A stretch of 64,000 bases of DNA from Parcubacteria group bacterium (GCA_041664225.1 JBAYLE010000003.1:15608-79607); one strand, 5' to 3'. Numbered from the stretch's first letter, positions 1 through 61,448 are shown. Program-made: numbers and translations. Notes: generated by a model from the sequence alone, not told the origin.

Positions 1-1752
1 GAAGTTCCTACTTCGCTTTACCGCAAAAAAATAATGAGCCTCGATGTCGCCCAACTCATCGCCGGCACCAGTTTTCGCGGAGAGTTTGAATCGCGCCTCA
101 AGGAAATAATCAAAGAAGCCAAGAATAATAACGACGTTATTTTATTCATCGATGAAATCCATAATATTGTCGGGGCCGGCAATGTGGCCGGCAGTTTGGA
201 TTTGGCCAATATCATCAAGCCCGCACTGGCGCGCGGCGAAATGCAGCTCATCGGCGCGACAACGCTCGCGGAGTATAAAAAATATATTGAGAAGGACGCA
301 GCACTGGAGCGGAGATTCCAGCCGGTGCAAGTCCAGGAACCAACCGAAGAAGAAGCCAGAAAAATCCTTTTCGGAATAAAAAGCAATTATGAGGCCTTTC
401 ATAACGTCTCGATTTCTCCAGATGCTGTGGATTTGACTGTGGCTCTCTGCGTCCGTTATATCCAAAACCGCCATCTGCCGGATAAAGCTATTGATGTAAT
501 CGATGAAACCGCTTCCAACATCCGTTCAAAAAACAATCCGCCGGGGCGGACAGATCTTATCCGCGCTATCAAAAAAGCCGAGGACGAGAAATTAGCCCTC
601 CTCACTGAGAAAGAAACGCTAGTTTCTGAAGAAAATTTTGAAAAAGCCATCAGTTTGCGCTCTCAGGAAAAAGAATTGGATGAAAAAATAAACTCTCTGC
701 GGCAAAAGCAAGCGCAGATAGAAATGGAAAACAAGATCAGTATTCGCGCAGAAGATATCATTGAGACTATTTCCAGGATATCCGGAATCCCCGTCGAAAA
801 ACTTGCGCAAGAAAAAAACAATAAATTGAAAAATATCAAAAAGACCTTGGCCGCGCAAATCATCGGGCAGAAAGAAGTCATCGAAAAACTTTCCGATACC
901 CTCATCCGTTCGCAAGCCGGCATCGGCAACCCTGATCGCCCGCTCGGTTCCTTTCTGTTTTTGGGCCCGACCGGAGTCGGCAAAACACTGACAGCCAAAA
1001 TTCTTGCGAAAGATTTTTTTGGCTCGAAAAAAAGTTTGGTCCGCATCGACATGAGCGAGCTCATGGAACGCCATAGTGTTTCTTCGCTTATCGGTTCGCC
1101 GGCAGGTTATATCGGCTATGGCGAAGGCGGCAACCTGACTGAAAAGGTACGGCAAAATCCATATTCCGTCGTCCTTTTTGACGAAATTGAAAAAGCCCAT
1201 CCGGATGTTTTCAATATCCTCCTGCAGATCCTGGAAGACGGCATTCTGACTGATGCGCAAGGCTTGCAAGTAAGTTTTAAAAATACCATCATTATTCTCA
1301 CATCGAATGTCGGCACGGATGAATTCACCAATGCTTCGCGGGTCGGTTTTGCCTCCGAACAATCAAGAGACGTTGTTTCCAAATTTAACGAAATCAAAGA
1401 TCAGGCCATCAAGGAATTAGAAAGAAATATGCGCCCCGAGCTGCTCAATCGCCTGGATTATATCCTCGTCTTCAACTCTTTGGGGAAATATGAAATCCAA
1501 AAAATTTCTGTGGTGGAAATGAATAAATTGAAAGCGCGCGTCAAAAAACAAGGCATCCTCTTGAGCTTCAATAAAGCGGTTTCCGATTTTGTCGCCGAAA
1601 AAAGTCTGGCCCTGAGCCAGGGCGCCCGGCTGGTCAGAAAAAACGTCCAGGAAATGATCGAAAATCCGATCGCGGAAATGATAATCTATAACAAAGTGCG
1701 CGATAAAAAGATTACCGTAAAAGTGGAGAAAGGAGAGATAAAATTAATCTAG
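1..1752 (+). CDS. clpC: ATP-dependent Clp protease ATP-binding subunit ClpC/ClpB-type AAA+ chaperone, 5'-truncated at the window edge. The reading frame is open from base 1.
   Basis: AAA+ D1 sensor region LIAGTSFRGEFESRL...ILFIDEIHNIVGAG; UVR-like linker; D2 Walker A GPTGVGKT and Walker B VVLFDEIEKAH; C-terminal ClpB_D2-small region. Confidence 0.85.
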   Translation, partial: EVPTSLYRKKIMSLDVAQLIAGTSFRGEFESRLKEIIKEAKNNNDVILFIDEIHNIVGAGNVAGSLDLANIIKPALARGEMQLIGATTLAEYKKYIEKDAALERRFQPVQVQEPTEEEARKILFGIKSNYEAFHNVSISPDAVDLTVALCVRYIQNRHLPDKAIDVIDETASNIRSKNNPPGRTDLIRAIKKAEDEKLALLTEKETLVSEENFEKAISLRSQEKELDEKINSLRQKQAQIEMENKISIRAEDIIETISRISGIPVEKLAQEKNNKLKNIKKTLAAQIIGQKEVIEKLSDTLIRSQAGIGNPDRPLGSFLFLGPTGVGKTLTAKILAKDFFGSKKSLVRIDMSELMERHSVSSLIGSPAGYIGYGEGGNLTEKVRQNPYSVVLFDEIEKAHPDVFNILLQILEDGILTDAQGLQVSFKNTIIILTSNVGTDEFTNASRVGFASEQSRDVVSKFNEIKDQAIKELERNMRPELLNRLDYILVFNSLGKYEIQKISVVEMNKLKARVKKQGILLSFNKAVSDFVAEKSLALSQGARLVRKNVQEMIENPIAEMIIYNKVRDKKITVKVEKGEIKLI

Positions 1753-1871
1753 AAAATAATTTACAATTTTCAATTTTCAATTTACAATCAATTTTCAATT
1801 ATTTAATTATCAATAACTTAAAATTTGAAAATTGGTTCATTGGAAATTCAATGAAAATTGATTACTGAGCA

Positions 1872-2624
1872 TTGAAAATTTCAAATTCTCTTCAAAACAT
1901 AAAAGTCTTTGTGTTGGACACTCTCTTCCCAATCTCCTGCATTTCCTGCGGCCTTGATGATGTTTGGCTTTGTGAAGCCTGTTTTCAAAAAATCGAACTG
2001 CTTCCCTTTCAGGTTTGTCCGCGCTGCGAAAAACTGATTGCTGAAAAAGGTCGGCTGTGCGACCATTGCAAAAAAGACAGATCGACGCTCGATAGTTTAC
2101 TAGCAGCTACAAAATACAATAAAAACAACCTGGCCAAAATGGTCCACCTGTACAAATATAATTTTGTGGAAGACTTGCATGTTCCGTTCGCCAGATTGCT
2201 GGTCAAAATTATTTTGAAAAATAACTTGCCGTTGCCGGATCTGATTATCCCCGTCCCCCTGCACCAGCGCCGCCTGCGCTGGCGCGGCTTTAACCAGTCA
2301 GAACTCTTGGCAAATTACATGAGCCAAAACCTGACCCCGGGTTTTTCCATCCCGGTCGCTCCCGATCTGATCAAGCGCCAAAAATACACTCCCCCGCAGA
2401 TGCAGATCGGCAATTATTCCGAGAGAAGAAAAAATATGCGGGATGCGTTCGTCTTAAATTCAAACCAAGATATCCAAAATAAAAAGATTCTTCTAATTGA
2501 TGACATCGCCACTACCGGTGCCACGCTCTTTGAGTGTGCTAAGGTTTTGAAAACAAACGGCGCCAAAAAAGTCTTCGCCGCCGTCATTGCGAGACAGGAA
2601 TTTAACAATGAAAAAATTACGTAA
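1872..2624 (+). CDS. comF: ComF family phosphoribosyltransferase-domain competence protein
   Basis: N-terminal CxxC...CxxC zinc-finger, C-terminal PRTase motif LLIDDIATTGATL. Confidence 0.75.
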   Translation: MKISNSLQNIKVFVLDTLFPISCISCGLDDVWLCEACFQKIELLPFQVCPRCEKLIAEKGRLCDHCKKDRSTLDSLLAATKYNKNNLAKMVHLYKYNFVEDLHVPFARLLVKIILKNNLPLPDLIIPVPLHQRRLRWRGFNQSELLANYMSQNLTPGFSIPVAPDLIKRQKYTPPQMQIGNYSERRKNMRDAFVLNSNQDIQNKKILLIDDIATTGATLFECAKVLKTNGAKKVFAAVIARQEFNNEKIT

Positions 2625-3960: not shown

Positions 3961-3978
3961 GGAAGAGTGCCCGAGTGG
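3961..3978 (+). pseudogene. 5' fragment of tRNA-Ser (first 18 nt of the downstream tRNA-Ser gene) in a ~24-bp direct repeat; not a complete tRNA
   Basis: atataggaagagtgcccgagtgg occurs at 3955-3978 and again at 4048-4071. The first copy is followed by unrelated hairpins with no T-arm or 3' acceptor strand. Confidence 0.5.
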
Positions 3979-4053
3979 GCTGAATGCGGATGAGCATTCA
4001 GCGGGTTGCAAAAGCAACCCGGGAACCACGAGGCAAACAATTTTTTAAATATA

Positions 4054-4140
4054 GGAAGAGTGCCCGAGTGGTTTAAGGGAACAGTCTTGAAAACTGTCGT
4101 GGGTGAAAGTCCACCGTGAGTTCGAATCTCACCTCTTCCG
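4054..4140 (+). tRNA. tRNA-Ser (anticodon TGA)
   Basis: Acceptor ggaagag/ctcttcc, anticodon loop ctTGAaa, long variable arm, T-arm gtgagttcgaatctcac. Confidence 0.85.
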
Positions 4141-4164
4141 CCTTCGTGAAGAAGTCCATAAATT

Positions 4165-12921: not shown

Positions 12922-14025
12922 ATGATAATTTTAGGAATTGAAACTTCATGCGACGAAACCGCTGCTTCGGTAGTCAAGGCCGGCAAAAATGTCAAAATTT
13001 TGTCAAACATCGTATCGTCTCAAGTCAAACTGCATGCTAAGTGGGGCGGCGTAGTGCCCAATCTGGCAGCCAGAGAACATTTGAAAAATATTTTACCCGT
13101 AATCGAAATAAGCCTCGAAGAAGCTTCTGTAAAAATTAAAGATATTGATCTGATTGCTGTTACCAATGGACCAGGTCTGATTCCAGCCTTGCTCATCGGC
13201 ACCAATACAGCCAAGGCGCTCGCTTATGCCTGGGAAAAACCCTTGATTGGAGTGCATCATATTGAGGGACACATCTACGCTAATTTTATCGGGGATAAAA
13301 TTAGCGCAAGTTCAAAGTTCAAAGTTCAAAGTTCAAGGTTCCCGATTTTATGTTTGGTTGTTTCCGGCGGGCACACGCAATTAGTCCTAATGAAAGATCA
13401 TTTGAAATATAAAATTATCGGACAAACCTTGGATGATGCTGCCGGTGAAGCTTTTGATAAGGTTGCACGAATTCTAGGACTCGGTTATCCTGGAGGACCG
13501 GCCATTGCCGAGGCGGCGATGAAGTCAAAAATTAAAAGTGAAAAACTCAAAGTTCAAGGTTCAGCTTTCTTCCTTCCACGGCCAATGATTAATTCAAAAA
13601 ATCTCGATTTCTCTTTTTCCGGACTGAAAACTGCCGTTCTTTACACGGTCAAAAAAAATCCAGAGATATTGAGAAATAAAAAAATGCTAATTGATTTATG
13701 TTCCGAGTTTCAGCAGGCCGTTATCGATGTTTTGATTCATAAGACCCTGGCCGCCGCTGAAAAATACAATCCCAAAATGATAATGCTGGCGGGCGGCGTT
13801 TCTGCCAATGAAGAATTGCGCGATCAATTAAGCGCTTCTTTGAAAAAACATTTTCCAAATACAAAATACCGCATCCCCGAAACTAGATACAGTCTCGACA
13901 ATGCCGCCATGATAGCCAGCGCCGGATTTTTCCGCTGGCAAAAAATGAACAAGACTGAGCGAGAGAGCACTAGTTCAAATTGGAAAATATTAGAAACGGA
14001 TGCTAATTTAAAATTAAAACAATAA
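12922..14025 (+). CDS. tsaD: tRNA N6-adenosine threonylcarbamoyltransferase TsaD (Kae1/YgjD family). Start at MIILGIE.
   Basis: GIETSCDETA, HHIEGH, VVSGGHTQL, GGVSAN motifs. Two short in-frame insertions carry the repeat tcaaagttcaaggttc. Confidence 0.85.
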   Translation: MIILGIETSCDETAASVVKAGKNVKILSNIVSSQVKLHAKWGGVVPNLAAREHLKNILPVIEISLEEASVKIKDIDLIAVTNGPGLIPALLIGTNTAKALAYAWEKPLIGVHHIEGHIYANFIGDKISASSKFKVQSSRFPILCLVVSGGHTQLVLMKDHLKYKIIGQTLDDAAGEAFDKVARILGLGYPGGPAIAEAAMKSKIKSEKLKVQGSAFFLPRPMINSKNLDFSFSGLKTAVLYTVKKNPEILRNKKMLIDLCSEFQQAVIDVLIHKTLAAAEKYNPKMIMLAGGVSANEELRDQLSASLKKHFPNTKYRIPETRYSLDNAAMIASAGFFRWQKMNKTERESTSSNWKILETDANLKLKQ

Positions 14026-16850: not shown

Positions 16851-16954
16851 CAGGAAAAGTGAAAAGTTCATAAAGTCTATAGAGTTCATAAAGTTGAAAT
16901 TCACTATTGCTTATTCCTTTTAACTTTAAAACTTTACAAACTTGTAACTCGATT

Positions 16955-19892: not shown

Positions 19893-20009
19893 TTTAAGTT
19901 TATAATGTTATAAAGTTGAAAGTTTATAAAGTATTTTCTTCAATATTAACACACTTTATAAACTTTATGAACTTTAAAAACTTTTTACTTTTAACTTTTA
20001 ACTTTTAAC

Positions 20010-22213: not shown

Positions 22214-23583
22214 GTTTGCAAGTCAAGTTCAACTGTTTTTTCTTTTAACTCATTTTCATTGATAGTCACGCTTTCCGAATAATCAACCAATCCATCCGCC
22301 GTAACTGCAAGAGTATAATCACCATCCGTAAATGATACATCATCAGATCGCGGGAAAAAAGCCAGTCCATCTTTTGAGGTAACTGCGGTTTTATCATAGC
22401 CAGAACCATTAGTTAAACGAACGCTCGCCCCCTCCAACAGGCTGAGATCGTCCGCTCTAGAAATTGTCACTAGGAGAGCAGCCACATCTTTGCGGCTAAC
22501 TTTCACATTCATATCCAATGATCCTCCTGGCGCCAAAACGGCCGGCGAAACCGGATCGTACCCAACAACTTCATAGTCAGAATCATTAAGAGTAAAGGTG
22601 TAATTACCGGGATCGATAGAGCTGAAATTTTTTTCTCCGCTGGAATTAGTAGTATAATCCGCATCAGTGCTGTATTTAGGAACAGCCGGTGCCATCGGAT
22701 CTGCGTTATATTCGGTTCCGATTTGTCTTCCGCCGATAAGATGAAAATCGATATCCGGTACGCTATCTCCCTTGTAATCCTTTGTCTTTATGGATAAATC
22801 AGACAATTCATTCTGATAAATATTAATTGTATTCAAACCACCAGCCACCACAGAGGCATTCTCCGGAATAGGATTGTAACTAGTATCGGGATACGGAGGC
22901 AAGGAGGCAATGGTTTCATATCCGCTTTTTGTAACAGTAATAACGTATTTTTTTATTGATTCAGAAAGTCCAACCATCATCAGTCGCCCATAATTATCAG
23001 TAGAGTGTGTTTCATCGAGACCAGTATCACTATTTTGGATGCGAACCAAGCTCTGAGGAATAATCCCTCCCCCCTTGTCGCTGCTAACATTAATTACCAA
23101 AACGCCCTTGTTAGCTGTCGGCTGTTCGACGCCAGCCGGAACAAAACGAGAATTCATAGAGACTTTATATTGCCCGTTATTCCATGATACCGTTATTTTC
23201 ACATATTTATAATCAATAAAATCAACGTCATTCGGACTGCCACCCAATGTTCCGTCAAATGGATCGTCCTCATTTTTTATTTGCGTTAAAACATTGAAGC
23301 TTGCCCCGTTCCTGACAATATCTTCACTTTCATGCAGATTTCCGGCCGGATCGCCAGTGGTGTGAGCTATATCATCAAAGGCCAAGTTTCGCACAATCTC
23401 CATTTTTTCATTCGCCAAAGCTAACGCTGCCAAACGATTCTTGGAATTGATGATATACTGGGTACCCAAAGAATAAGAGCGATAAAAAGTTACCGTTACA
23501 ATAGAAAAGATAAACAGAAAAATCAAAGCCTCAATTAAAGTAAACGCTGGCCTAATTTTGTTTTTTGTTTTTTGTTTTTTCAT
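22210..23583 (-). CDS. Prepilin-type N-terminal domain protein, large (PilV-like minor pilin / tip-adhesin candidate)
   Basis: A|FTLIEALIFLFIFSIV class III signal followed by ~420 aa of beta-rich domains. Confidence 0.65.
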   Translation of the reverse strand: MKKQKTKNKIRPAFTLIEALIFLFIFSIVTVTFYRSYSLGTQYIINSKNRLAALALANEKMEIVRNLAFDDIAHTTGDPAGNLHESEDIVRNGASFNVLTQIKNEDDPFDGTLGGSPNDVDFIDYKYVKITVSWNNGQYKVSMNSRFVPAGVEQPTANKGVLVINVSSDKGGGIIPQSLVRIQNSDTGLDETHSTDNYGRLMMVGLSESIKKYVITVTKSGYETIASLPPYPDTSYNPIPENASVVAGGLNTINIYQNELSDLSIKTKDYKGDSVPDIDFHLIGGRQIGTEYNADPMAPAVPKYSTDADYTTNSSGEKNFSSIDPGNYTFTLNDSDYEVVGYDPVSPAVLAPGGSLDMNVKVSRKDVAALLVTISRADDLSLLEGASVRLTNGSGYDKTAVTSKDGLAFFPRSDDVSFTDGDYTLAVTADGLVDYSESVTINENELKEKTVELDLQT

Positions 23584-24803
23584 TTGATATTTTCCAACAC
23601 GCTGTACATCGGTTGCAAAATGGAAATCGCGAAAAAACCGACTGCGCTGCCGATAATAATCATCAGGACCGGTTCGATTATGGAGGATAGATTTTTGGTT
23701 TGCTGATCAACTTCAGCTTCATAGAATTCCGCCAGTTTCATCAGCACCATTTCAGTTTTTCCCGTTTCTTCTCCCACTTCGATCATTTGCGGCACCAGGA
23801 TCGGAAATATTTTCTTTTCCTCATAAAAAAGTTTACTTAAATTTACTCCCTTTTGAATGTTTTCCGCCGCGTTTTCCAGCGCCCTTTTATAATAAAAGTT
23901 TGTAAGCGTCCGGGAAAGTATTTTTAGGGCTTCAACTACTGACACGCCGCTTTTCAAAAGCGAACTATAAATTCTGGCGAAACGCGCGCAATTCACCTTA
24001 ATGACGATATTTTTCACCACTGGAATGCGAATAGCCAGAAAACCGAATATTTTTTTACCGATTGGGGTGGTTGTGAGAACCTTCAGACCAAGCGCTAAGG
24101 CAATCATCCCAAAAATCAAGATCAGGTAGTGATATTTCATAAAATCACTGGCGCTGATGATAAACTGGGTCGTTGGCGGTAAGTTGGCATTCAGGTCTTT
24201 GAACACTCCCGTTATTTGCGGCACCACAAAAATCATCATCAGCACTCCGATGCCCATCATTGCCACAAGTATGACTGCGGGATAAGTCATAGCGCCTTTG
24301 ACCTTGCTGATAATTTCATGCTCTTTTTCCAGCTGGCCAGCTAAAATATTAAGCACTTCTTCCAGATTTCCGCTGGCTTCACCGACACGGACCATATTGA
24401 CAAAAAGCTCATTAAAAATTCCGGGATATTTAGTCAGTGAATCAGCAAATGTATTCCCGGATTGCAAGCCTTCTTGGATATCTTCCAAAACCTTTATAAA
24501 TCTTTTATTTTTGGTTTGCGAGGTGATATTTTTTATGGCGCGCGAAAGCGGCAAACCGGAGGAGATCATCACACTCAGATTTCTGGCAAACATCATTTTT
24601 TCGCTGACCGGAATGCTGGAAAAACGATCAAGAAAATTAACTTTTGCCTTGTCGTTTTTTTCTTCCTCTAAAACTTTAAAGGAAGTCAGAATAAAATTTT
24701 CCGATCTCAACTGATTGGCCAGATCTCTTTCGTCTTTGACGTTCATTTCTCCCCCTTTTGTTTCTCCGGAAAAACTTTTCGCTGTATAAACTACTTTGGG
24801 CAT
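23580..24803 (-). CDS. pilC: Type IV pilus platform protein PilC (GspF family)
   Basis: Two T2SSF repeats and three TM segments; ~400 aa. Confidence 0.8.
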   Translation of the reverse strand: MPKVVYTAKSFSGETKGGEMNVKDERDLANQLRSENFILTSFKVLEEEKNDKAKVNFLDRFSSIPVSEKMMFARNLSVMISSGLPLSRAIKNITSQTKNKRFIKVLEDIQEGLQSGNTFADSLTKYPGIFNELFVNMVRVGEASGNLEEVLNILAGQLEKEHEIISKVKGAMTYPAVILVAMMGIGVLMMIFVVPQITGVFKDLNANLPPTTQFIISASDFMKYHYLILIFGMIALALGLKVLTTTPIGKKIFGFLAIRIPVVKNIVIKVNCARFARIYSSLLKSGVSVVEALKILSRTLTNFYYKRALENAAENIQKGVNLSKLFYEEKKIFPILVPQMIEVGEETGKTEMVLMKLAEFYEAEVDQQTKNLSSIIEPVLMIIIGSAVGFFAISILQPMYSVLENIK

Positions 24804-27975: not shown

Positions 27976-28055
27976 TCTTTTTTGATGTTTATCTTTATTT
28001 TACTAATACAATTATACCATAAAAAAGGAAGTTGGGTAAGCGAACCCTATAGTTA

Positions 28056-28235
28056 ATCGAGCATGTGAAATATTCTATTCAAATTCAAGAGAGTGAACGT
28101 TAAAAAAGTTGCTGGTCCGCCTCGGGGCAACCAGCAACTTTTAGTGAACGAGCGCGGAATTTGTTAGAATATTTCACCTGCTCGGACTTTTCTTTGGTTG
28201 CTTTTCTTTTCCTAGAAAAGAAAAGCAAGAAGCGG
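28056..28235 (+). repeat. Copy A of a ~150-200 nt structured repeat family (conserved loops, covarying stems)
   Basis: Shares atcgagcatgt(g/a)aaatat, gcgttaagaaa, the ggtccgcctcggggcaacc loop, acttttagtgaa, aatttgttag, cctgctcggacttttcttt and the ttttcctagaaaagaaaag hairpin with copies at 53323 and 52135. Confidence 0.7.
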
Positions 28236-28298
28236 TAATTTCCAAATTCTTCGACGTTTTTGCGTGGCTTATATTAGCCAAAAATAGCAATATTATCC

Positions 28299-31764: not shown

Positions 31765-31872
31765 AATTGTTTATTAAAATAATTGATTAGAAAAACTATT
31801 AAAAGTAATAAAATTTTACTATCCACTTAACCACCTGTCAATCAACTGTGCGACAAAAGACTTTTTTATTGT

Positions 31873-31930
31873 CAGACGAAGCGAGAGAAATAAAAATTTA
31901 TTTTTATTTTCAAACGAGTGCTGACAACAT
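31873..31930. repeat. Hairpin-bounded ~60-80 nt element, copy 1 (ttgtcag...agcgagagaaata...cgagtgctgacaaca)
   Basis: Near-identical ends shared with 55470-55548; termini ttgtcag/ctgacaa are inverted. Confidence 0.55.
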
Positions 31931-31942
31931 AATTTTCAAAAA

Positions 31943-34816
31943 TCAAAGATACTTCCCCGTCCAACTCCTTTTGCATTTTTTCAATTTGTCCGGTGTGCCG
32001 GCATAAACCACTTCGCCGCCCTTGTCCCCGCCTTCCGGCCCCAAATCAACCACCCAATCGGAATTGCGGATAACATCGACATTGTGTTCGACAACTAAAA
32101 CCGAATTGCCTTTTTCCACTAGTGCGTCCAAAACTTTCAGAAGTCTTTTCACATCGTCAAAATGCAAACCGATGGTTGGTTCGTCCAGAATATATAGGGT
32201 CTTGCCTGTGGATTTACGAGCCAGTTCCGTCGCCAACTTTATCCGCTGTGCCTCACCGCCAGAAAGATTGGTGGCGCTTTGGCCCAAACGCAGATATCCT
32301 AAGCCCACGTCTTCCAGAGTTTGCAATTTTTCCACGATTAGCGCGGATTTTTTGAAAAACCGTAAGGCGTAGGACACGCTCATATCCAAAACTTCAGCGA
32401 TATTCACGCCCTGATATTCAATGTCCAAAGTTTTTTGATTGTATCTGGTTCCATTACAGGCCTCACATTTAACATACATGTCCGGCAAAAGATGCATTTC
32501 GATTTTTTTGGTGCCATCGCCCTGGCAGACTTCGCAGCGCCCGCCCTTCATGTTGAAACTAAAGCGACTCGGAGCATAGCCCCGGCTTTTGGATTCTTCC
32601 GTATTCGCAAAAATATCCCGAATCAGTGAGAAAACCCCGGTATACGTAGCTGCGTTTGAACGCGGCGTTCTGCCGATCGGCGCCTGATCGATATTGATAA
32701 CTTTGTCGACATTATCCAGCCCCCTGACTCTTTTATGCAAGCCTGGCATTGCCTTGGCGCCAAAAAAGTACTTAGATAAAACTTTAGCCAGAATATCAGA
32801 AACCAGGGTCGATTTGCCCGATCCGGAAACACCAGTCATCGCCACAAATTTACCCAGTGGAATTTCTACATCGATATTTTTCAAGTTATGTTCCTGGGCT
32901 CCTATAATTTCGATAGACTTTTTATTGCCTTTGCGGAAACTTTTTTTCTCCGCCACTTTCTTCTTGCCAGTCAGATATTCCGCCGTGGACGTTTTTGATT
33001 TTAAGAGTTTTGCGAAATCGCCCTGAAAAATGACTTGACCGCCTTCCTCACCAGCTCCGGGACCCATATCAATGATCCAGTCAGCTTGGCGGATAATGTC
33101 CGCATCATGTTCAACCACAATCATTGAATTTCCTGCGTCTTTCAAGGCCTGCATAGTATTTATCAGCTTTTCGGTGTCGCGGTTATGGAGTCCGATCGAT
33201 GGCTCGTCCAAAACATAAGTGATGCCCATCAGTTCCGATCCGATCTGAGTAGCCAAACGGATCCGCTGTGCTTCACCGCCGGAAATCGAATTAGCGCCTC
33301 TGCTCAAAGATAAGTATTCCAAGCCTACATTGCAAAGAGCATCGGCTTTAAGCGCCATATCCTTGATCAATGGTTCAATTATTTTTTTCCGTCCGGGGTT
33401 CAATTCGATTTTTTTCAACTCTTCAAAGAATCCTTTCAATTTAACCAGATCCAGATGCACGACATCGTCGATGGATTTGTCAGCCACCAGCACCGATAAA
33501 TATTCTTTTTTTAATCTTTTGCCCTCACAGGCCGGACAGATTTTTTCCAGCATATACTTTTCCATATCGCCACGCACATAATCGGAAGTCGCCTCTTCAT
33601 ATTTTCGCTTGATCATAGGCAAAACACCCTCGAAAATCATTCGCACTTCCTTGACGCCCCCCATAGCATCCCGCTGCTGGATCGTAATTTCTTTCTGTTC
33701 CGGACCGTATAAAACAATCTCCAGCGCCTCTTTGGATAATTTTTTTATCGGTACATCCAAAGAAAAATCGTGTTTCCCTGCCAAGGCCCGTAAAATATTC
33801 AGATAATTTCCTTGTCCGCCTACCCGACCGTTGGATTTGCTCCATGGCAAAATCGCGCCTTCCGCCAAAGAAAGGTTTTTATTAGGCATAACCAAGTCGG
33901 CATCGACTTCTTTGGTGATACCCAAGCCGGAACAATGCGAGCAAGCACCTTCCGGATTATTAAAGGAGAAGTGTCTCGGCGTAATTTCGTTTACTCTGGT
34001 TTGACACCCATTGCAGACAAAGTCCCTATTGTACGTCCGATCCGCCTCTCCTTCTACTGAAATAATCAAAGATCCTCCGCCAACACGCAAGGCCGTCTCG
34101 ATCGAGTCCAATATTCTCTCTGTGTCCGGACTTTTAGCTTTGACTGAGAGGCGGTCAACCACTACTTCGATCTCACTTTCGATCTTGTCGCTAGCGACCA
34201 GGCTGGCTTCCGTCACCAGCATTATCTTTCCATTGAAACGGACGCGCGCGAATCCCAGCTGAGAGATACCGCGCAAATGATCCTTGTCGGTCGTCCGCCA
34301 GCTGGCGGAGCCGCTTTTTGCGGATTCTTTCGGTTTGGCCAATACGGCTATCTGCGTGTTGTCAGGCAAAGCAAAAATCTCATCTAGTATTTCCTGGTTG
34401 GTTTTTCTGAGCATCGGCGCCCCGCATTGCGGACAGTGCGGCGCTCCGATCTTGGCGAACAAAACACGGAGGTAGTCGTAGATCTCTGTCAAGGTTCCCA
34501 CGGTTGAACGCGGGCTCCTGCTTAAGCTTTTCTGGTCAATGGAAATAGTCGGACTTAGGTTTTCAATTTTGTCCACATCCGGCTTGGCACCGACATCCAA
34601 AAACTGCCGCGCGTATGATGACATACCCTCCAGATATCGGCGGTTGCCTTCCGCGTGCACCACATCAAAAGCCAATGAAGATTTACCCGATCCGGACAGC
34701 CCGGTGATCACCACTAGTTTGTCGCGCGGGATATCAATATCGATATTTTTTAAGTTATTGACCCTCGCTCCCCGGATAATAATTTTGTCCCTTTTGCAAT
34801 AAGTACCGTTCGCCAT
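31943..34816 (-). CDS. uvrA: Excinuclease ABC subunit A (full-length class I UvrA)
   Basis: Two ABC ATPase modules ([20 protein letters not shown]), zinc-finger cysteine clusters, LSGGEAQR signatures. Confidence 0.85.
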
Positions 34817-34882: not shown

Positions 34883-36235
34883 CTAGCTAAGCAGGTTCTT
34901 TCTGCGAAGTTTTTTGTGATATGTTATCGCAAACCGATGCGCTTCATCCATAATCCGCTTGATCAAATTTTTGTCATTGATAATGTTTTTTAAATTTGAA
35001 AATTTAGGAATTGAAAATTGATTGAAAATTGAAAATTGAAAATTGAGATTTTTGCGAGACTTTCCTTTGGCAATGGTAACCATTGGCATCTCTAAATTTA
35101 ATTCCTGCAATAATCTTTCAGCCATAAAAAGGTGCCCTTTCCCTCCATCCAACAAAATTAAATCTGGTTGCGGCCAATCATTTTGAAAACGGCGCAACAA
35201 AACTTCGCGCATCATACCCACATCATCTGTGCCTTCAACTGTTTTGATTTTAAATTTACGATACTGCGACTTGTCCGGTTCATTATTTTTGAAAACTACC
35301 ATCGAACCCACCGCATGAGCACCGGAAATGTTGGAAATATCATAAGCTTCAATTCTTATTGTTTCGGATTTTTGATTTATGATTTCTAATTTCTCATCGC
35401 TCGCGATGAGCGCCACATCACGGATGTGCTTCAGCGCAAAAACTTTATTCCTAGCGTCCGCTGCTTTTTCAAATTCATTATTTTTCGCGTAATTTTTCAT
35501 TTCTGTCTCTAGTTTTTTTATTAATCCTTTTTTTCGGCCTTCCAAAATCATTCTGATTCCACGAATATTTTTCATGTAATCCGCTTTAGAAATGGCGCCG
35601 GCATACGGCCCCGGACATCTGCCAATTTGAAAATCCAAACAGCCCCTCTCTGTTTTTTGATTATTGCTATGGAATGGAAAAATTTTTCGCAAAATTTTCA
35701 GCGCAATTTCCATTTGCTTTTTGGAAGTATAAGGACCAAAGGTCTTTGCAACCCTGACCCCCCTCTCCCTTTTTAGGGAGAGGGGCTGGGGGTGAGGGGG
35801 CAGATCCGTCGCTCTCAAAATCAGTACCCTCGGAAAATCTTCCTTAGTTATAACGAAATATGAAAATGACTTATCATCTTTCCCCATCGCGTTATACTTC
35901 GGCTGGAGTTTTTTGATCAGTTGCGCTTCCAAAATCAACGCCTCCAAAACCGAATCAGTTTCTCTCACTTCGATATCCGCAATCTGATCAATTGCATACT
36001 CGATCGGCCGATCCAAATTCCGCGCCGTAGCGTGTCGAAGCTTGGTGTCTTTTGGTCGTTTTGGTCGAGAGACACCGAGCTTCTTATCCGTAAGCGGCGT
36101 AGAAAAATACGACCCGACCCGGCTCCGCAAATTAGTCGCCTTCCCCACATACAAAACATCCCCGGCTTTATCCTTGAAAATATACACGCCAGGATTTTTG
36201 GGCAGCTTTAATATCTTAATTTTTAGGCTTGACAT
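34883..36235 (-). CDS. uvrC: Excinuclease ABC subunit C, short form (450 aa), carrying several in-frame repeat insertions
   Basis: N-terminal GIY-YIG (GVYIFKDKAGDVLYVGKATNLRSR), UVR domain, C-terminal endonuclease domain (AYDISN). Confidence 0.75.
   Translation of the reverse strand: MSSLKIKILKLPKNPGVYIFKDKAGDVLYVGKATNLRSRVGSYFSTPLTDKKLGVSRPKRPKDTKLRHATARNLDRPIEYAIDQIADIEVRETDSVLEALILEAQLIKKLQPKYNAMGKDDKSFSYFVITKEDFPRVLILRATDLPPHPQPLSLKRERGVRVAKTFGPYTSKKQMEIALKILRKIFPFHSNNQKTERGCLDFQIGRCPGPYAGAISKADYMKNIRGIRMILEGRKKGLIKKLETEMKNYAKNNEFEKAADARNKVFALKHIRDVALIASDEKLEIINQKSETIRIEAYDISNISGAHAVGSMVVFKNNEPDKSQYRKFKIKTVEGTDDVGMMREVLLRRFQNDWPQPDLILLDGGKGHLFMAERLLQELNLEMPMVTIAKGKSRKNLNFQFSIFNQFSIPKFSNLKNIINDKNLIKRIMDEAHRFAITYHKKLRRKNLLS
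34985..35050. repeat. GAAAATT heptamer tandem array inside the uvrC coding frame
   Basis: ggaattgaaaattgattgaaaattgaaaattgaaaattgag is nearly identical to the reverse complement of the array at 1760-1800; translated as NLNFQFSIFNQFSIPKF. Confidence 0.7.
35745..35791. repeat. Palindromic G/C-rich mini-insertion inside uvrC (in-frame)
   Basis: ccctctccctttttagggagagggg hairpin plus ctgggggtgagggggc; locally GC-rich; encodes LPPHPQPLSLKRERG. Confidence 0.55.
36038..36083. repeat. Palindromic mini-insertion with core cttttggtcgttttggtcgaga inside uvrC (in-frame)
   Basis: gaagcttggtgtc [ttttggtcgttttggtcgaga] gacaccgagcttc; same core as the element in uvrA2 at 38890-38944. Confidence 0.65.
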
Positions 36236-36754: not shown

Positions 36755-39667
36755 TTATTTTTTCAAAACCTCCCTCAAAAACTTTCCTGTATAACTCTCT
36801 TTATGATACTTTGCCACTTCTTCCGGTTCGCCGGTGACGACCACTCGGCCTCCCTCATCCCCGCCTTCAGGGCCAAGATCGATAATCCAATCAGCGGTTT
36901 TGATGACGTCCATATTATGTTCAATGACCACCACGCTGTTGCCTGCATCCACCAGGCGATTCAGAACTCCCAACAATTTTTTGATATCATCAAAATGCAA
37001 GCCTGTCGTCGGTTCGTCCAAGATGTATAAAGTATTACCGGTCGCCCGCCGGGAAAGTTCCGTCGCGAGTTTGATTCGTTGCGCCTCCCCGCCAGAAAGC
37101 GTAGTGGCCGCCTGCCCGAGCTGGATATACCCGAGTCCCACATCTTCCAAAACAGACAGCTTGTCATTGAGGTCATGATAATTCCCAAAAAATTCGCGCG
37201 CTTCCATAACGTTCATTTCCAAAACTTCAGCGATATTTTTCCCTTTATATTTTACATGCAGAGTTTCACTATTATATCTTTTGCCATGGCAAACATCGCA
37301 AGAGATAAAAACATCCGGCATAAACTGCATCTCAATTTTGAGCAGGCCTTGCCCCTGGCAATTGTCGCATCTTCCTCCGCTGACATTAAAAGAAAACCGG
37401 CCCGGCAGATAGCCCTTAGCTTTGGCATCTTTGGTCGCGGCAAAAATTTCTCGAATCTCGGAAAACATTCCAGTGTAAGTTGCCGGATTTGACCGCGGAG
37501 TGCGCCCGATCGGCGACTGGTCGATCATAATGACTTTGTCCACATGTTGCGTCCCCACAATTTCCGCGTGTTTCCCCGGCCGTTCCAGAGAATGCATCAG
37601 TTTGCTCGACAAAGATTTATATAAAATATCTTCCACCAGCGATGATTTGCCCGAACCGGAAACGCCCGTCACCACCGTCATGACTTTGAGCGGAAATTCC
37701 ACAGTAATATTTTTCAAATTATTCTCCCGCGCTCCCCGCACCACCAGCCATTTTTTGTTTTTGACCGGCCGGCGGAATTTCGGCACCTCGATTTTCAATT
37801 CTCCGCGCAAATATTTAGCCGTGATGGATTTGGGATGACCCATCACTTCCTGCGGACTACCTTGCGCCACTATTTCCCCGCCCAATTTTCCCGCACCCGG
37901 ACCGATGTCTACCAAATGATCTGCCTCGCGCATCGTCTCTTCATCATGTTCAATCACGATTAAGGTGTTTCCGATATCGCGCAATTGCAAAAGTGTGTTC
38001 AAAAGTTTCGAATTGTCACGCGCGTGCAGACCGATCGATGGCTCATCCAAAATATACAAAACCCCCACTAATTGCGATCCGATCTGGGACGCCAATCTGA
38101 TCCTTTGGGTTTCTCCACCCGCTAAAGTGTTAGCGGAACGCGCCAAAGTCAGATAATTCAATCCGACATTGTCCAAAAAACCCAGCCGCGCCACAATTTC
38201 TTTGCAAATTTTGCCGGCAATCTGTTTCTCTCGATCATTTAATTCCAACTCTTTAAAAAATTTCAACGAATCGCTTACGCTTACAGACGAAACTTCATGA
38301 ATATTTTTCCCACCTACTGTAACTAACAAAGTTTCAGGCTTGTAGCGCATTCCATGACAGGCCGAACATGGATTTTGCGACATATATTTTTCAATCCCCT
38401 CGCGCACCGCGTCTGAATCGGTTTTAAAATATCGTTCCTGCATAAAACCAACCACGCCCCGCCAGGACATATAAAATTTCCAGTTGGTTCCGGTCTTGGC
38501 GCGAATTGTAATCGGCACTTCCTCGGCATCTTTTTCTGAGATCATATCTTCGGCATCCCGCGCACCATATAATAATATATTTACTTTTTCTTTTGGTAAA
38601 TCACGCAGTCTGACATTATCCGAAATATGAAAATATTTCGCCACCGACAAAATCACCCCGCCATAATAATTATTCCTCTTGAAATTCCACGGCGCCAATC
38701 CGCCTTCGGAAATCGTTTTGGTCATATCCGGCATCACTAAATCCGGATCAATTTCTTTTTTGGTGCCCAAGCCTTCGCAGGTCGGGCAAGCTCCGTACGG
38801 AGAGTTGAAAGAAAAAAGCCGCGGCTCCAATTCTGGAAACTCGACATCATGATCCGGACAAGCTAATTTTTGATTATAAATTATTGAATCGGAGAGGTTC
38901 GACCTCTTTTGGTCGTTTCGGTCGAGAGAGGTCGAACCTCTTTTTATAATTTTGATTTTCACTAAACCATTGGAAAGTTTCAGCGCTTTTTCCACATCTT
39001 CAAAAATACGGGAAATATTTTGATCGTTTATTCCAATCGCGTCGATCACGATATCAATCTTGTGCATCTTGTAGCGCGCCAACGGAATTTTGGTTTTGGG
39101 ATTAAGCTCATATTTTTTACCATTGACATAAGCTTTGGAAAAGCCACGTTTATACATTTCTAAAAGCAAAGTTGAATATTCGCCTTTACGTCCGCGCACC
39201 ACCGGCGACAAAATCTCGATTGTTGCCCCCTCACCAATTTCCAGAATCTTGCTGACAATTTCATCCGTGGAAAGCTTGGAAATTTCTTGCCCATCAACCG
39301 GACAATGTGGGATGCCGATTTTGGCATACAGCAAACGCAAGTAATCGTGAATTTCCGTTACAGTTCCCACTGTAGAACGCGGATTTTGCGAAGCAGATTT
39401 TTGCGAAATAGAAATGGCCGGCGAAAGCCCTTCGATATAATCGACATCCGGTTTTTCCATCTGCCCCAAAAACTGTCGGGCATAGGCCGACAAGCTTTCC
39501 AAATATCTTCTCTGTCCTTCGGCAAAAATAGTATCAAAAGCCAGAGTCGATTTCCCCGACCCGGAAATACCGGTAAAAACAATAAATTTATCCCGCGGCA
39601 ACTCGAGATCGATATTTTTCAGATTATGTTCACGCGCGCCTTTTATAATAATTTTGTTCATAAACAC
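36755..39667 (-). CDS. uvrA: Second full-length UvrA paralogue (excinuclease ABC subunit A)
   Basis: Two ABC modules ([20 protein letters not shown]), [16 protein letters not shown] signatures, zinc-finger cysteines; contains an in-frame palindromic insertion. Confidence 0.85.
38890..38944. repeat. Palindromic mini-insertion with core cttttggtcgtttcggtcgaga inside uvrA2 (in-frame)
   Basis: gagaggttcgacctc [ttttggtcgtttcggtcgaga] gaggtcgaacctc; encodes [18 protein letters not shown]. Confidence 0.65.
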
Positions 39668-52083: not shown

Positions 52084-52134
52084 ATTTTAAAAATATAAAA
52101 TAATAGATCCTTCAGCCTACAAAATTTCCACAAA

Positions 52135-52284
52135 ATTCAAGCGAGCGAGCGTTAAGAAAGTTCCTTGATTCCGCCTCGGAAGCAGCCGGAACTTTTAGCT
52201 CGCAAGTGCATAATTTTGTCGGAAATTTTGTCTGGCTGAGAGTTCTTTTTGTTACTTTTTCTTGCGGAAAGAAAAAGTAAGGGG
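52135..52284 (+). repeat. Copy C of the structured repeat family (lacks the 5' arm), immediately upstream of trpS
   Basis: attcaagcgagcgagcgttaagaaa, ttccgcctcggaagcagcc loop flanked by agttcc/ggaact, cttgcggaaagaaaaagtaagg 3' end. Confidence 0.65.
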
Positions 52285-52325
52285 CTGTAATTGCCTAAAA
52301 CACTCCTTTACGCTAGAATAAATTT

Positions 52326-53306: not shown

Positions 53307-53322
53307 AAATTTTTAAACTACC

Positions 53323-53522
53323 ATCGAGCATGTAAAATATGCTACTACAAATTGAAGCTTTTGAGCGTTAAGAAATTTTTAGGTCCGCCTCGGGGCAACC
53401 AAAAATTTTAGTGAAAAAGCTGAAAATTTGTTAGCATGTTTTGCCTGCTCGGACTTTTCTTTGTAACTTTCTTTTCCTAGAAAAGAAAGTTAGATCAGTA
53501 CTTGCGGAAAGAAAAAGTAAGG
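53323..53522 (+). repeat. Copy B of the structured repeat family, between trpS and the GT39 gene; its 3' end supplies the AAGGA RBS
   Basis: atcgagcatgtaaaatat, gcgttaagaaa, ggtccgcctcggggcaacc, cctgctcggacttttcttt, ttttcctagaaaagaaag, cttgcggaaagaaaaagtaagg. Confidence 0.7.
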
Positions 53523-55469: not shown

Positions 55470-55548
55470 GTTATTTATTGTCGAACAAAGCGAGAGAAAT
55501 AGACGCCACTGACGGACATTTCCGAGCGAGTGCTGACAACAAATTTTG
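55470..55548. repeat. Hairpin-bounded ~80-nt element, copy 2
   Basis: tattgtcgaacaaagcgagagaaata...cgagtgctgacaacaaatttt matches 31873-31930. Confidence 0.55.
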
Positions 55549-59969: not shown

Positions 59970-60038
59970 TCATAAAACATGAAACATATAACATGAAACG
60001 AGATTGTTGCATGTTGTATGCTATATGTTACATGAACT

Positions 60039-61332: not shown

Positions 61333-61384
61333 TTCATAAAACATGCAACAAGCCCAGAAAAAAATATTTTTGAGATAAAAAAAT

Positions 61385-61410
61385 AAAAATCCCCCAAGGG
61401 ATTTTTATTT
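61385..61410 (+). terminator. Rho-independent terminator after efp
   Basis: aaaatcccccaagggatttttattttg. Confidence 0.7.
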
Positions 61411-61448
61411 TGTTTCATGTTACATGCTTCATGCTACATGTTCTATGA

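What the first reader, a model, noticed from the sequence alone, without database searches (positions are those of the whole stretch)
1760..1890. GAAAATT heptamer arrays shared between an intergenic palindrome and the uvrC coding region
The clpC-comF spacer is built almost entirely of caatttt/gaaaatt repeats arranged as an imperfect palindrome. The reverse complement of 1765-1800 (aattgaaaattgattgtaaattgaaaattgaaaattg) is nearly identical to 34993-35040 inside uvrC (aattgaaaattgattgaaaattgaaaattgaaaattg). This is one dispersed repeat occupying both non-coding and coding DNA. It may be a recombination or slippage hotspot, or a binding-site array.
Basis: seen in the sequence. Interest (0 to 1): 0.55.

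Follow-up and report, generated by a model that had tools for sequence, protein, structure and literature searches.

The report
Dispersed heptamer-repeat palindromic element
A roughly 60-base module built of 7-base repeats occurs here as a hairpin-forming inverted pair between clpC and comF and as a translated single copy inside the repair gene uvrC. It belongs to a widespread repeat family of ultra-small (CPR) bacteria whose full-size relatives carry the small S23p gene known from ribosomal-RNA intervening sequences.

Summary
Window 1764-1800 (reverse strand) and 35009-35045 are 36/37 identical, including an irregular 4-base unit; chance expects none. They are two of three copies of a defined module: [AATTTTC]x4-AATC-AATTTTC-AAT-N5-AATTTTCAAA.

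- **Spacer copy.** Two modules with their variable ends facing form a 123-nt palindrome (1758-1880) that fills the clpC-comF spacer. As RNA it folds into a long A-U hairpin.
- **uvrC copy.** One sense-strand module (34991-35050) is translated as a low-confidence loop, UvrC residues 396-415.
- **Family.** The same module occurs in at least 119 metagenome stretches, in spacers and in frame in pth, RNase HII and a probable prepilin peptidase. It stays near consensus while flanking codons diverge, and it is read in different frames.
- **Orthologous spacers.** Orthologous clpC-comF spacers keep a heptamer palindrome but change the unit.
- **Full-size relatives.** Some relatives use the module as inverted repeats around a PF05635 gene (S23p, Avd-like), as in 23S rRNA intervening sequences. 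Independent PF05635 genes on plasmids of other phyla are also flanked by heptamer arrays.

I read the finding as an ORF-less derivative of such a cassette. A role as an RNase III-type stem is inferred, not shown. The three assemblies show no length difference in the arrays. The kind is known; this variant and the S23p link were not found described in the searched library.

The parts
1758..1880 (.). Complete 123-nt palindromic heptamer element filling the clpC-comF spacer. It starts 5 nt after the clpC stop codon and ends 30 nt before the comF GTG at 1911.
   Evidence: Inverted arms 1758-1813 / 1825-1880. Boundaries derived as for 20 other full elements of 115-252 nt, mostly 115-157 nt. RNA fold -24.0 kcal/mol, z -3.75, 0 of 200 shuffles as stable.
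1758..1814 (+). Left module: AATTTAC AATTTTC AATTTTC AATTTAC AATC AATTTTC AAT TATTT AATTATCAA.
   Evidence: nhmmer profile of 112 metagenome copies, E 3.3e-11, 1759-1814. Aligned with S23p-cassette inverted repeats.
1820..1880 (-). Right module, a diverged inverted copy of the same module.
   Evidence: nhmmer E 4.7e-5, 1878-1820. Aligned in A4.
34991..35050 (-). Solo module in sense orientation inside uvrC, translated as NLNFQFSIFNQFSIPKFSNL (UvrC residues 396-415).
   Evidence: nhmmer E 2.7e-12, 35047-34992. Residue and coordinate mapping. DNA identical in two other species where 45-48% of conserved residues elsewhere use another codon. Falls where the query is 5-11 residues longer than solved UvrC chains and in a low-pLDDT region.
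34..1752 (+). 3' part of the clpC-type AAA+ gene upstream of the element.
   Evidence: Pfam AAA_2, AAA_lid_9, ClpB_D2-small. Full gene is 839 aa in L003.
1911..2624 (+). comFC-like gene downstream of the element. The JGI gene call starts at GTG 1911; the longest ORF starts at TTG 1872, inside the right arm.
   Evidence: Pfam DZR_2 + Pribosyltran. JGI call of 237 aa.
34883..36235 (-). uvrC (GIY-YIG, UVR, RNase H-like endonuclease domain; no HhH2 domain) hosting the solo module.
   Evidence: Pfam. PDB matches 3c65 and 2nrt.
19893..20009 (.). Same class, other unit (ATAAAGT / ACTTTAT, AACTTTT): heptamer palindrome between pilM and a PilX-like gene.
   Evidence: RNA fold z -2.46. Pfam of neighbours.
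16853..16945 (.). Same class, other unit (GAAAAGT / ACTTTA): array pair between tRNA-Arg and tRNA-Lys.
59970..60038 (.). Same class, other unit (CATGAAA / TGTTACA): palindrome between rpsF and ssb.
61333..61445 (.). Same class: CATAAAA / TGTTACA-type arms flanking a canonical terminator between efp and recA.

Best explanation
The two loci are copies of one interspersed element family of Parcubacteria-type CPR bacteria. The building block is a roughly 60-nt module with a sharp outer end: four AATTTTC units, an irregular AATC, one more unit, AAT, five variable bases, then AATTTTCAAA.

Two modules with their variable ends facing make the 123-nt palindrome in the clpC-comF spacer. A single sense-strand module is read through in uvrC as a surface loop, the way Rickettsia palindromic elements are.

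Full-size relatives use the same module as inverted repeats around a PF05635 gene (S23p, Avd-like four-helix bundle). That is the architecture of the S23p-carrying intervening sequences of 23S rRNA. The window's palindrome is best read as an ORF-less derivative of such a cassette.

Shown:
- the module architecture and its dispersal;
- in-frame copies in several housekeeping genes;
- nucleotide-level retention of the consensus in different reading frames;
- persistence of a heptamer palindrome, with changing unit sequence, in orthologous clpC-comF spacers;
- the link to S23p genes.

Inferred:
- copies are kept at consensus by conversion-like copying from other copies rather than by cut-and-paste insertion;
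- in the clpC-comF transcript the long A-U stem acts like an intervening-sequence stem, that is, as a double-strand RNase (RNase III-type) processing or stability site that uncouples the two cistrons.
For: - **Identity and profile matches.**
- **Module architecture.** From 116 unique copies the 5' boundary is sharp, and 75 of 114 have exactly four units.
- **Polarity.** Adjacent pairs are +-:21, ++:7, --:2, -+:0.
- **Size and position.** Full elements are mostly 115-157 nt and fill tight spacers, at a median of 10 and 6 nt from the flanking genes.
- **Hairpin potential.** The spacer and its three orthologues give z -3.75, -7.6, -5.4 and -4.4, with 0 of 200 shuffles as stable. Their units differ: AATTTTC, AATTTCT, AATTTTT.
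- **uvrC copy.** 0 of 13 synonymous codon differences against 45-48% elsewhere, in two species whose UvrC is 69-75% identical.
- **pth copy.** The module is 95% identical against 79% for the adjacent catalytic coding DNA. It is read in a different frame from uvrC.
- **Patchy distribution.** The NFQF module is scattered on the UvrC tree, with sister sequences carrying other arrays.
- **Strand constraint.** The GAAAATT strand has TGA in all three frames and the AATTTTC strand is open. Of 25 solo modules lying inside a called ORF, 21 are in sense orientation.
- **S23p link.** Three PF05635 genes lie between or directly beside modules. Two (L174, L203) are bracketed by an inverted pair. In L174 and L233 the ATG lies in the module's CAATG.
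- **Independent test.** 9 of 18 flanks of plasmid PF05635 genes have period-7 arrays, against 0-1 for other periods and 7 of 400 random pieces. The flanks are inverted complements above every shuffle in 5 of 9.
- **Literature.** The Coxiella intervening sequence has inverted repeats cut by RNase III, an S23p ORF, and tandem heptameric repeats just upstream of it (PMC4990558).
Against: - No PF05635 gene and no RNase III signature lie in the 64-kb window, so the partner and the nuclease are not shown for this organism.
- Only 2 loci with 3 modules occur in about 71 kb of this contig.
- No target-site duplication was seen.
- No empty orthologous site was seen.
- In Pth the module replaces native sequence without any length change. 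That is not what simple insertion predicts.
- The compensatory-change argument for the spacer rests on 4 low-complexity sequences and is soft.
- No expression or RNA-end data are available.
- Pure GAAAATT arrays are common in other phyla with the opposite arm polarity, so part of the resemblance could be convergent.
Confidence: 0.6

Rival explanations
1. Ordinary heptanucleotide simple-sequence repeats made independently at each site by polymerase slippage. The similarity of the two loci would be convergence on a favoured unit.
For: Period 7 is the only enriched tandem period in the window and in 740 kb of related contigs away from modules, at 40 arrays against 0-2. GAAAATT arrays occur in many phyla, with at least 120 stretches found. 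Heptamers are reported as the most abundant long SSR class in most genomes (Mrazek 2007 as summarised in PMC4679880). Units drift along arrays.
Against: The irregular AATC unit, a fixed count of four units in 75 of 114 copies, a sharp 5' end and a conserved non-periodic 3' part are shared by over 100 copies. There is no indel between three assemblies. Identical DNA occurs in different genes and reading frames.
Confidence: 0.1
2. A host cis-regulatory array: repeated sites for a DNA- or RNA-binding protein (for example S1-, Csp- or CsrA-type, or a repressor) that controls translation or transcription of the neighbouring genes.
For: Nucleotide-level conservation inside coding DNA. Modules often end at CAATG just before or at start codons. 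The analogy is TAACTGA heptamer repeats upstream of start codons (PMC4679880).
Against: Orthologous clpC-comF spacers change the unit sequence. There is no CtsR-type heptad. The sigma-70-like match in the left arm is absent from the orthologues. Neighbouring genes are functionally unrelated. Intergenic solo modules occur in both orientations relative to genes, 30 against 22.
Confidence: 0.15
3. A classical MITE moved by a transposase through cut-and-paste or copy-and-paste insertion.
For: Small size, terminal inverted repeats with sharp outer ends, strict +- polarity and many dispersed copies. In-frame copies resemble RPEs (PMC10969869).
Against: No target-site duplication. No transposase sits between modules. 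The two Y1 transposase genes nearby carry their own unrelated REP-like palindromes. Pth length is unchanged by the module. All orthologous spacers are filled.
Confidence: 0.1
4. A DNA-uptake-signal-like sequence, spread and maintained by biased uptake and recombination in these competence-dependent bacteria.
For: It would explain in-situ replacement without length change, orthologous retention at consensus, inverted pairs at gene ends and presence in a repair gene. Competence and pilus genes are abundant in the window.
Against: Density is far too low: 2 loci in 64 kb, and the octamer is not enriched outside arrays. The module is 60 nt long, unlike known 9-12 nt signals (own knowledge).
Confidence: 0.03

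Closest known systems
S23p-encoding intervening sequences (IVS) of 23S rRNA (Coxiella, Leptospira, Brucella, Xanthomonas)
   Same: Terminal inverted repeats form a long stem around a PF05635/S23p ORF. Tandem heptameric repeats lie directly upstream of the ORF. They are regarded as selfish elements, and the stem is cut by RNase III (PMC4990558). Relatives of the window's element have exactly this layout, with the module as the inverted repeat.
   Different: The window's copies are not in rRNA; only tRNAs were found by Rfam. They lack the ORF. Their arms are built almost wholly of heptamers. One copy is a translated half-element. RNase III cutting is untested.
Rickettsia palindromic elements (RPEs)
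   Same: Short palindromic repeats inserted in frame into unrelated housekeeping genes and tolerated as surface peptides (PMC10969869). Here the host genes are uvrC, pth, RNase HII and a probable prepilin peptidase.
   Different: RPEs encode a conserved peptide. This module is read in different frames. Coding copies are half-elements. In Pth it replaces native sequence with no length change. The phylum is different.
Heptanucleotide long simple-sequence repeats (cyanobacterial STRR, Xanthomonas/Nostoc GGGNATC, Beggiatoaceae TAACTGA)
   Same: Tandem 7-nt units, mostly intergenic, sometimes as inverted pairs, often next to start or stop codons (PMC4692102, PMC4679880).
   Different: Fixed architecture with an irregular unit, a sharp end and a non-periodic tail. 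No strain-level length variation was seen. There is an association with S23p genes.
MITEs, Correia elements and REP/REPIN elements
   Same: About 100-150 nt, inverted ends, hairpin-forming, dispersed, filling spacers inside operons.
   Different: No target-site duplication and no matching transposase. RAYT-like genes in related contigs have their own different REPs.

Membership tests
Heptanucleotide SSR (long simple-sequence repeat) | Tandem head-to-tail copies of a 7-nt unit, longer than chance expects | tested here: met
   TRF period 7, 8.1-8.4 copies at both loci. Period-7 arrays 5 against 0 in shuffles.
Heptanucleotide SSR (long simple-sequence repeat) | Copy number varies between strains through slippage | tested here: not met
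   No indel in three assemblies that are 99.97-100% identical. The unit count peaks at four across 114 copies. Only three near-identical assemblies were available, so power is low.
MITE | Small, non-coding, with terminal inverted repeats | tested here: met
   123 nt; arms 73% complementary. Both arms match one profile in opposite strands.
MITE | Multiple dispersed copies | tested here: met
   186 profile matches in 740 kb of related metagenome contigs, up to 6 per 14 kb. Only 2 loci in about 71 kb of this organism.
MITE | Target-site duplication at the ends | tested here: not met
   Flanks of 21 full elements show no direct repeat.
MITE | Parent element with the same ends encoding a transposase | tested here: not met
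   ORF-bearing relatives encode PF05635/S23p, not a recognised transposase. Nearby Y1 transposase genes have unrelated REPs. Only fetched loci were searched.
MITE | Filled versus empty orthologous sites | tested here: not met
   clpC-comF spacers of 3 other species are all filled with a heptamer palindrome. The Pth segment length is constant at 39 aa.
S23p-type 23S rRNA intervening sequence | Inserted in helix 25 or 45 of 23S rRNA | tested here: not met
   No rRNA in the window. Copies lie in an mRNA spacer and an ORF.
S23p-type 23S rRNA intervening sequence | Terminal inverted repeats forming a stable stem | tested here: met
   Folds with z -3.75 to -7.6.
S23p-type 23S rRNA intervening sequence | Carries a PF05635 (S23p) ORF | tested here: not met
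   Absent from the window's copies and from the window. Present between the same modules in L174, L203 and L233.
S23p-type 23S rRNA intervening sequence | Tandem heptameric repeats next to the S23p start | tested here: met
   For the family: the module abuts the ATG in L174, L203 and L233. 9 of 18 flanks of plasmid PF05635 genes carry period-7 arrays. Coxiella precedent.
S23p-type 23S rRNA intervening sequence | Excised from RNA by RNase III | not testable with these tools
   Needs RNA-end mapping or an in vitro assay.
Rickettsia palindromic elements | In-frame presence in unrelated protein-coding genes | tested here: met
   uvrC, pth, RNase HII. 21 in-ORF sense copies.
Rickettsia palindromic elements | Sequence membership in one of the RPE families | not tested
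   No RPE sequences were compared. The phylum and the unit structure both differ.
REP/REPIN with RAYT | Repeats flank and are mobilised by a RAYT (Y1) gene | tested here: not met
   The two RAYT-like genes found are flanked by GTACGAGGTCAGACCTCGTAC-type and GGGTTGAACC-type palindromes, not by the module.
CtsR operator | Direct repeat of the (A/G)GTCAAA heptad near a clp promoter | tested here: not met
   No such heptad on either strand of 1740-1915. The element is downstream of clpC.
DNA uptake sequence (DUS/USS) | Short signal at roughly one per kb genome-wide | tested here: not met
   TGAAAATT 22 against 16 expected, not enriched outside the two arrays.

The most novel reading that the evidence does not exclude
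The heptanucleotide repeats long known to be the over-represented SSR class in many bacteria would be largely the terminal repeats and ORF-less remnants of one widespread, uncharacterised class of selfish cassettes encoding S23p, an Avd-like pentameric four-helix-bundle protein. S23p would recognise the heptamer arrays and drive a conversion-like copying. That copying could overwrite spacers and even tolerant loops of essential genes (uvrC, pth, rnhB) without changing their length. When transcribed, the paired arms would be cut out like rRNA intervening sequences.
Probability: 0.2. Interest if true: 0.85.

Novelty: new variant of a known kind. Interest (0 to 1): 0.68.

Why it matters
- **A possible origin for heptamer repeats.** Heptamer repeats in bacteria have so far been attributed to polymerase slippage and have no assigned function. 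The link to S23p cassettes suggests a concrete origin and a candidate protein partner, both testable.
- **Mobile DNA in reduced genomes.** CPR genomes are small and gene-dense. I found no paper in the searched library describing an interspersed repeat family in them. This one fills operon spacers and rewrites loops of essential proteins.
- **A marker and an annotation hazard.** The module's nucleotide-level conservation across species makes it a useful marker. It can also mislead gene calling: start codons, N-terminal extensions such as the TTG 1872 start of comF, and low-complexity 'insertions'.
- **A possible regulatory layer.** If the stem is an RNase III site, it would be a regulatory layer in organisms where few regulators are known.

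Tried and rejected
- **Rfam.** No family matches the spacer or the window apart from tRNAs.
- **Intrinsic terminator.** No G+C-rich stem with a T run lies in the spacer or its orthologues. Canonical terminators do exist elsewhere in the window.
- **Promoter donation.** TTTACA-17-TACAAT in the left arm is not conserved in the orthologues.
- **CtsR operator.** Absent.
- **IHF-like site.** One WATCAANNNNTTR match in the loop at 1808. The consensus is too weak to use.
- **DNA uptake signal.** Density is too low.
- **RAYT/REP link.** The Y1 genes have their own REPs.
- **Target-site duplications.** None seen.
- **DGR-type adenine mutagenesis.** Variation is confined to one position of units 2 and 4, not spread over all adenines.
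- **Frameshift site in uvrC.** The AAAUUUU stretch is not in the X_XXY_YYZ register, judging from the codons.
- **Assembly artefact.** The same in-frame arrangement appears in independent assemblies and species.
- **Arm-identity comparison between orthologous spacers.** Not discriminating in such low-complexity DNA.
- **Viral contigs.** The 25-nt junction occurs in 9 contigs, all at one conserved phage locus. This was uninformative.
- **Missing DNA.** Two encoding-contig look-ups returned no DNA.

Full report
**1. The observation**

The spacer between a clpC-type AAA+ gene (34-1752) and a comFC-like gene is made of AATTTTC-type units on the left and GAAAATT-type units on the right. The comFC-like gene starts at GTG 1911 in the JGI gene call; the longest ORF starts at TTG 1872. 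The two halves are inverted repeats, 1758-1813 and 1825-1880, 56 nt and 73% complementary.

The 37-mer AATTGAAAATTGATTGAAAATTGAAAATTGAAAATTG occurs exactly at 35009-35045 (+) and with one mismatch at 1764-1800 (-). It occurs nowhere else with up to 3 mismatches, and 100 shuffles gave none. Both copies share an irregular 4-base unit (GATT / AATC) in the same place.

The second copy lies in frame in uvrC (34883-36235, minus strand; GIY-YIG, UVR and RNase H-like domains). It encodes NLNFQFSIFNQFSIPKFSNL, residues 396-415.

**2. Organism and strain variation**

The window matches a Parcubacteria/Moranbacteria-type CPR metagenome contig that was assembled twice, as JGI Ga0376277_0001041 and ENA k141_919978. 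The UvrC protein is named 'Parcubacteria group bacterium' by NCBI. Both assemblies are 99.97-100% identical to the window, with no gap in either array. No length polymorphism is visible at this shallow depth.

**3. Heptamers are a genome-wide habit**

Period 7 is the only enriched tandem period in the window. There are 5 arrays of at least 4 units, against none for periods 5, 6 and 8-15 and none at period 7 in shuffles.

Besides the two loci, there are in-frame arrays in tsaD (13306-13342) and at the N-terminus of a pilin-like gene (23556-23585). There are also four more spacer palindromes built from other 7-nt units: 16853-16945, 19893-20009, 59970-60038 and 61333-61445.

In 740 kb of related metagenome contigs, away from the module itself, there are 40 period-7 arrays against 0-2 for any other period from 5 to 12. 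Heptanucleotide repeats are already reported as the most abundant long SSR class in most bacterial genomes, with a polymerase-slippage explanation (Mrazek 2007 as summarised in PMC4679880 and PMC4692102).

The hits span Bacteroidota, Thermoanaerobaculia, Patescibacteria, Planctomycetota, Clostridia and Cyanobacteria, and 29 have an inverted partner within 250 nt.

**4. A defined module, not a free-running microsatellite**

All but one are outside uvrC.

Anchored on the junction, 116 unique copies show a sharp 5' boundary and a conserved tail that was not part of the search pattern. The architecture is [AATTTTC]x4 - AATC - AATTTTC - AAT - N5 - AATTTTCAA(A). Exactly four units precede AATC in 75 of 114 copies.

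A profile built from these copies finds three modules in the window:
- 1759-1814 (+), E 3e-11;
- 1878-1820 (-), E 5e-5;
- 35047-34992 (-), E 3e-12.

No more were found in the extra 6.7 kb of the contig.

In the metagenome loci, neighbouring modules are arranged +- 21 times, ++ 7 times, -- twice and -+ never. A complete element therefore has the sharp AATTTTC ends outside and the variable ends facing each other. Complete elements are mostly 115-157 nt, and the window's is 123 nt. They fill tight spacers, at a median of 10 and 6 nt from the neighbouring genes. No target-site duplication is visible.

**5. Coding copies**

The GAAAATT strand has TGA in all three frames. The AATTTTC strand is open in all three and reads NFQFSIF. 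Accordingly, of 25 solo modules lying inside a called ORF, 21 are in sense orientation.

*uvrC.* The module falls between the conserved 'AKG..RK' strand and the 'DEAHRFA' helix of the RNase H-like domain. There the query is 5-11 residues longer than solved UvrC chains. An AlphaFold model gives pLDDT below 50 for residues 392-396 and 403-410, next to a confident core.

The DNA of the module is identical in two other species whose UvrC is 69-75% identical. Elsewhere in the gene, 45-48% of conserved residues use another codon; within the module it is 0 of 13.

On a UvrC tree built without this segment, the module is patchy. Sister sequences carry other low-complexity arrays at the site, for example P0001 against P0003 and P0006 against P0005. 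The closest relative, P0003, has a diverged heptamer array (ACTTACA...) with a 22-nt gap.

*pth.* In peptidyl-tRNA hydrolase of Nealsonbacteria-type Parcubacteria the module is again in frame. It is 95% identical between species, against 79% for the adjacent catalytic coding DNA. It is read in a different frame from uvrC...CAA TCA ATT TTC AAT against ...AAT CAA TTT TCA ATT.

The Pth segment is 39 residues long with or without the module. Here the module has therefore replaced native sequence rather than been added.

*Other hosts.* RNase HII carries an in-ORF copy. So does a membrane protein in L166, L186, L207 and L246 that is probably a prepilin peptidase.

The constraint is therefore on nucleic acid, not on a peptide. 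The pattern fits conversion towards a family consensus, or selection on the DNA or RNA, better than cut-and-paste insertion.

**6. The spacer copy is old as a structure, not as a sequence**

ComF orthologues of 86%, 78% and 69% identity (L248, L249, L251) still follow clpC. Each spacer holds a 122-146-nt palindrome that starts a few bases after the clpC stop codon. The units differ, however: AATTTCT/AGAAATT in two spacers and AATTTTT/AAAAATT in the third.

All four spacers fold as long hairpins, with z -3.75, -7.6, -5.4 and -4.4 and 0 of 200 shuffles as stable. The uvrC half-element is unstructured (z +1.1).

The near-consensus sigma-70 match in the window's left arm is absent from the orthologues, and none has a canonical terminator. 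There is no CtsR-type heptad. Rfam has nothing for the region.

**7. The link to S23p cassettes**

Of 140 ORFs within 2.5 kb of modules, five are PF05635, the '23S rRNA-intervening sequence protein'. This is S23p, a four-helix-bundle protein homologous to Avd of diversity-generating retroelements (PMC10053308).

Three of these genes lie between or directly beside modules:
- L174: module 18-74 (+), ORF 79-450 (-), module 447-504 (-);
- L203: module 571-624 (+), ORF 626-1030 (-), module 1032-1089 (-);
- L233: modules upstream of ORF 1024-1389 and a further palindrome downstream.

In L174 and L233 the ORF's ATG lies in the module's CAATG. In L203 the ATG follows the module by a few bases. An alignment shows that these inverted repeats, the window's two arms, the uvrC copy and a pth copy are one module: 75% mean column identity and the same AATC junction.

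Other PF05635 genes in the fetched loci are bracketed by inverted heptamer arrays of other units: GATTTAC in L148, GGAATTT in L236 and GAGAATT in L058.

As an independent test I took nine distinct PF05635 genes from plasmids of Cyanobacteriota, Riemerella and Azospirillum. Nine of 18 flanks carry a period-7 array, against 0-1 for periods 4-6 and 8-10 and 7 of 400 random pieces of the window. The two flanks are inverted complements above all 100 shuffles in five of nine genes, and direct repeats in one. Several of these genes sit inside operons, for example between cas10 and cmr3 and between cas6 and cas4.

The published Coxiella intervening sequence is a 428-nt selfish element in 23S rRNA. Its terminal inverted repeats form a stem cut by RNase III. 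It carries an S23p ORF, with tandem heptameric repeats (GACAGAT) of strain-variable number directly upstream of that ORF (PMC4990558).

The two Y1 transposase genes near modules are RAYT-like and carry their own unrelated palindromes.

**8. Interpretation**

The finding is an ORF-less, MITE- or RPE-like member of a family whose full-size form is an S23p cassette with heptamer inverted repeats.

What is shown is the architecture, the dispersal, the coding copies, the nucleotide-level retention and the S23p association.

What is inferred is, first, conversion-like maintenance. Second, by analogy with intervening sequences, the transcribed stem between clpC and comF would be a substrate for a double-strand-specific RNase and would uncouple or destabilise the two cistrons.

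The caveats are these:
- There is no S23p gene and no RNase III signature in the window.
- There are only two loci in about 71 kb.
- There are no RNA data.

No paper describing such elements in CPR bacteria, or a general S23p-heptamer association, turned up in the searchable library. That is not proof of novelty.

Noticed in passing
window 28040-28260, 52110-52300, 53320-53520: Three copies, all on the + strand, of a roughly 190-nt structured repeat: a long hairpin plus a second hairpin. RNAalifold predicts 61 pairs, 17 with compensatory changes. There is no Rfam match. One copy lies between minus-strand genes, so it may be another DNA-level palindromic element rather than a leader RNA.
   Followed up: partly
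window 31862-31935 and 55478-55545: A shared roughly 65-nt motif (ttattgtc.ga..aagcgagagaaata ... gagtgctgacaaca) in two spacers.
   Followed up: no
window 13306-13342 and 23556-23585: In-frame heptamer arrays in tsaD ((AAGTTCA)x5, giving SSKFKVQSS) and at the N-terminus of a pilin-like protein ((AAAAAAC)x4, giving MKKQKTKNK). TsaD is about 45 residues longer than the Pfam profile.
   Followed up: partly
window 31943-34816, 34883-36235, 36755-39667: uvrC is flanked by two uvrA paralogues. UvrC is only 450 aa and lacks the C-terminal HhH2 domain, as do its CPR homologues of 401-499 aa. Its other low-pLDDT segments coincide with low-complexity insertions.
   Followed up: partly
window 3962-3985: The 5' half of a tRNA-Ser (ggaagagtgcccgagtgg) is duplicated about 90 nt upstream of tRNA-Ser(tga) at 4054-4142. 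It may be a remnant of an integration event.
   Followed up: no
P0273, P0282, P0293, P0299 (Pth); P0019, P0023, P0012 (UvrC): G+C-rich peptides such as PALSQKGGV and PAMSGSRQGG are nested inside the module-encoded segment, at the same place in different proteins. The translated module itself therefore looks like a hotspot for a second, G+C-rich insert.
   Followed up: no
L023, L037, L100, L122 (Thermoanaerobaculia MAGs): Arrays are arranged (GAAAATT)n - G+C-rich hairpin - (AATTTTC)n, the opposite polarity to the CPR element. They look like bidirectional terminators with extended A and T tracts.
   Followed up: no
L136, L152 and other pth loci: About 110 nt downstream of the in-frame module, the segment encoding KNLKLKIKNL is an AAAAATT-type array that pairs with the module in the predicted fold. 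Essential coding sequence would sit in the loop. The peptide also occurs in Pth proteins without the module.
   Followed up: partly
L252-L260 (IMG/VR contigs): The 25-nt junction occurs in nine viral contigs, always at one conserved locus just upstream of the ribosome-binding site of one gene.
   Followed up: partly
L250 about 2890-2900: In a species where comF is next to pilM rather than clpC, the spacer has no palindrome but contains a perfect TTATCCACA DnaA-box consensus.
   Followed up: no
L134 3190-3215, 3780-3800, 4020-4070; L151 4200-4225, 4925-4950: RAYT-like Y1 transposase genes in CPR-type contigs are flanked by their own REP-like palindromes (GTACGAGGTCAGACCTCGTAC; GGGTTGAACC-type). 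This is a second, separate repeat system.
   Followed up: partly
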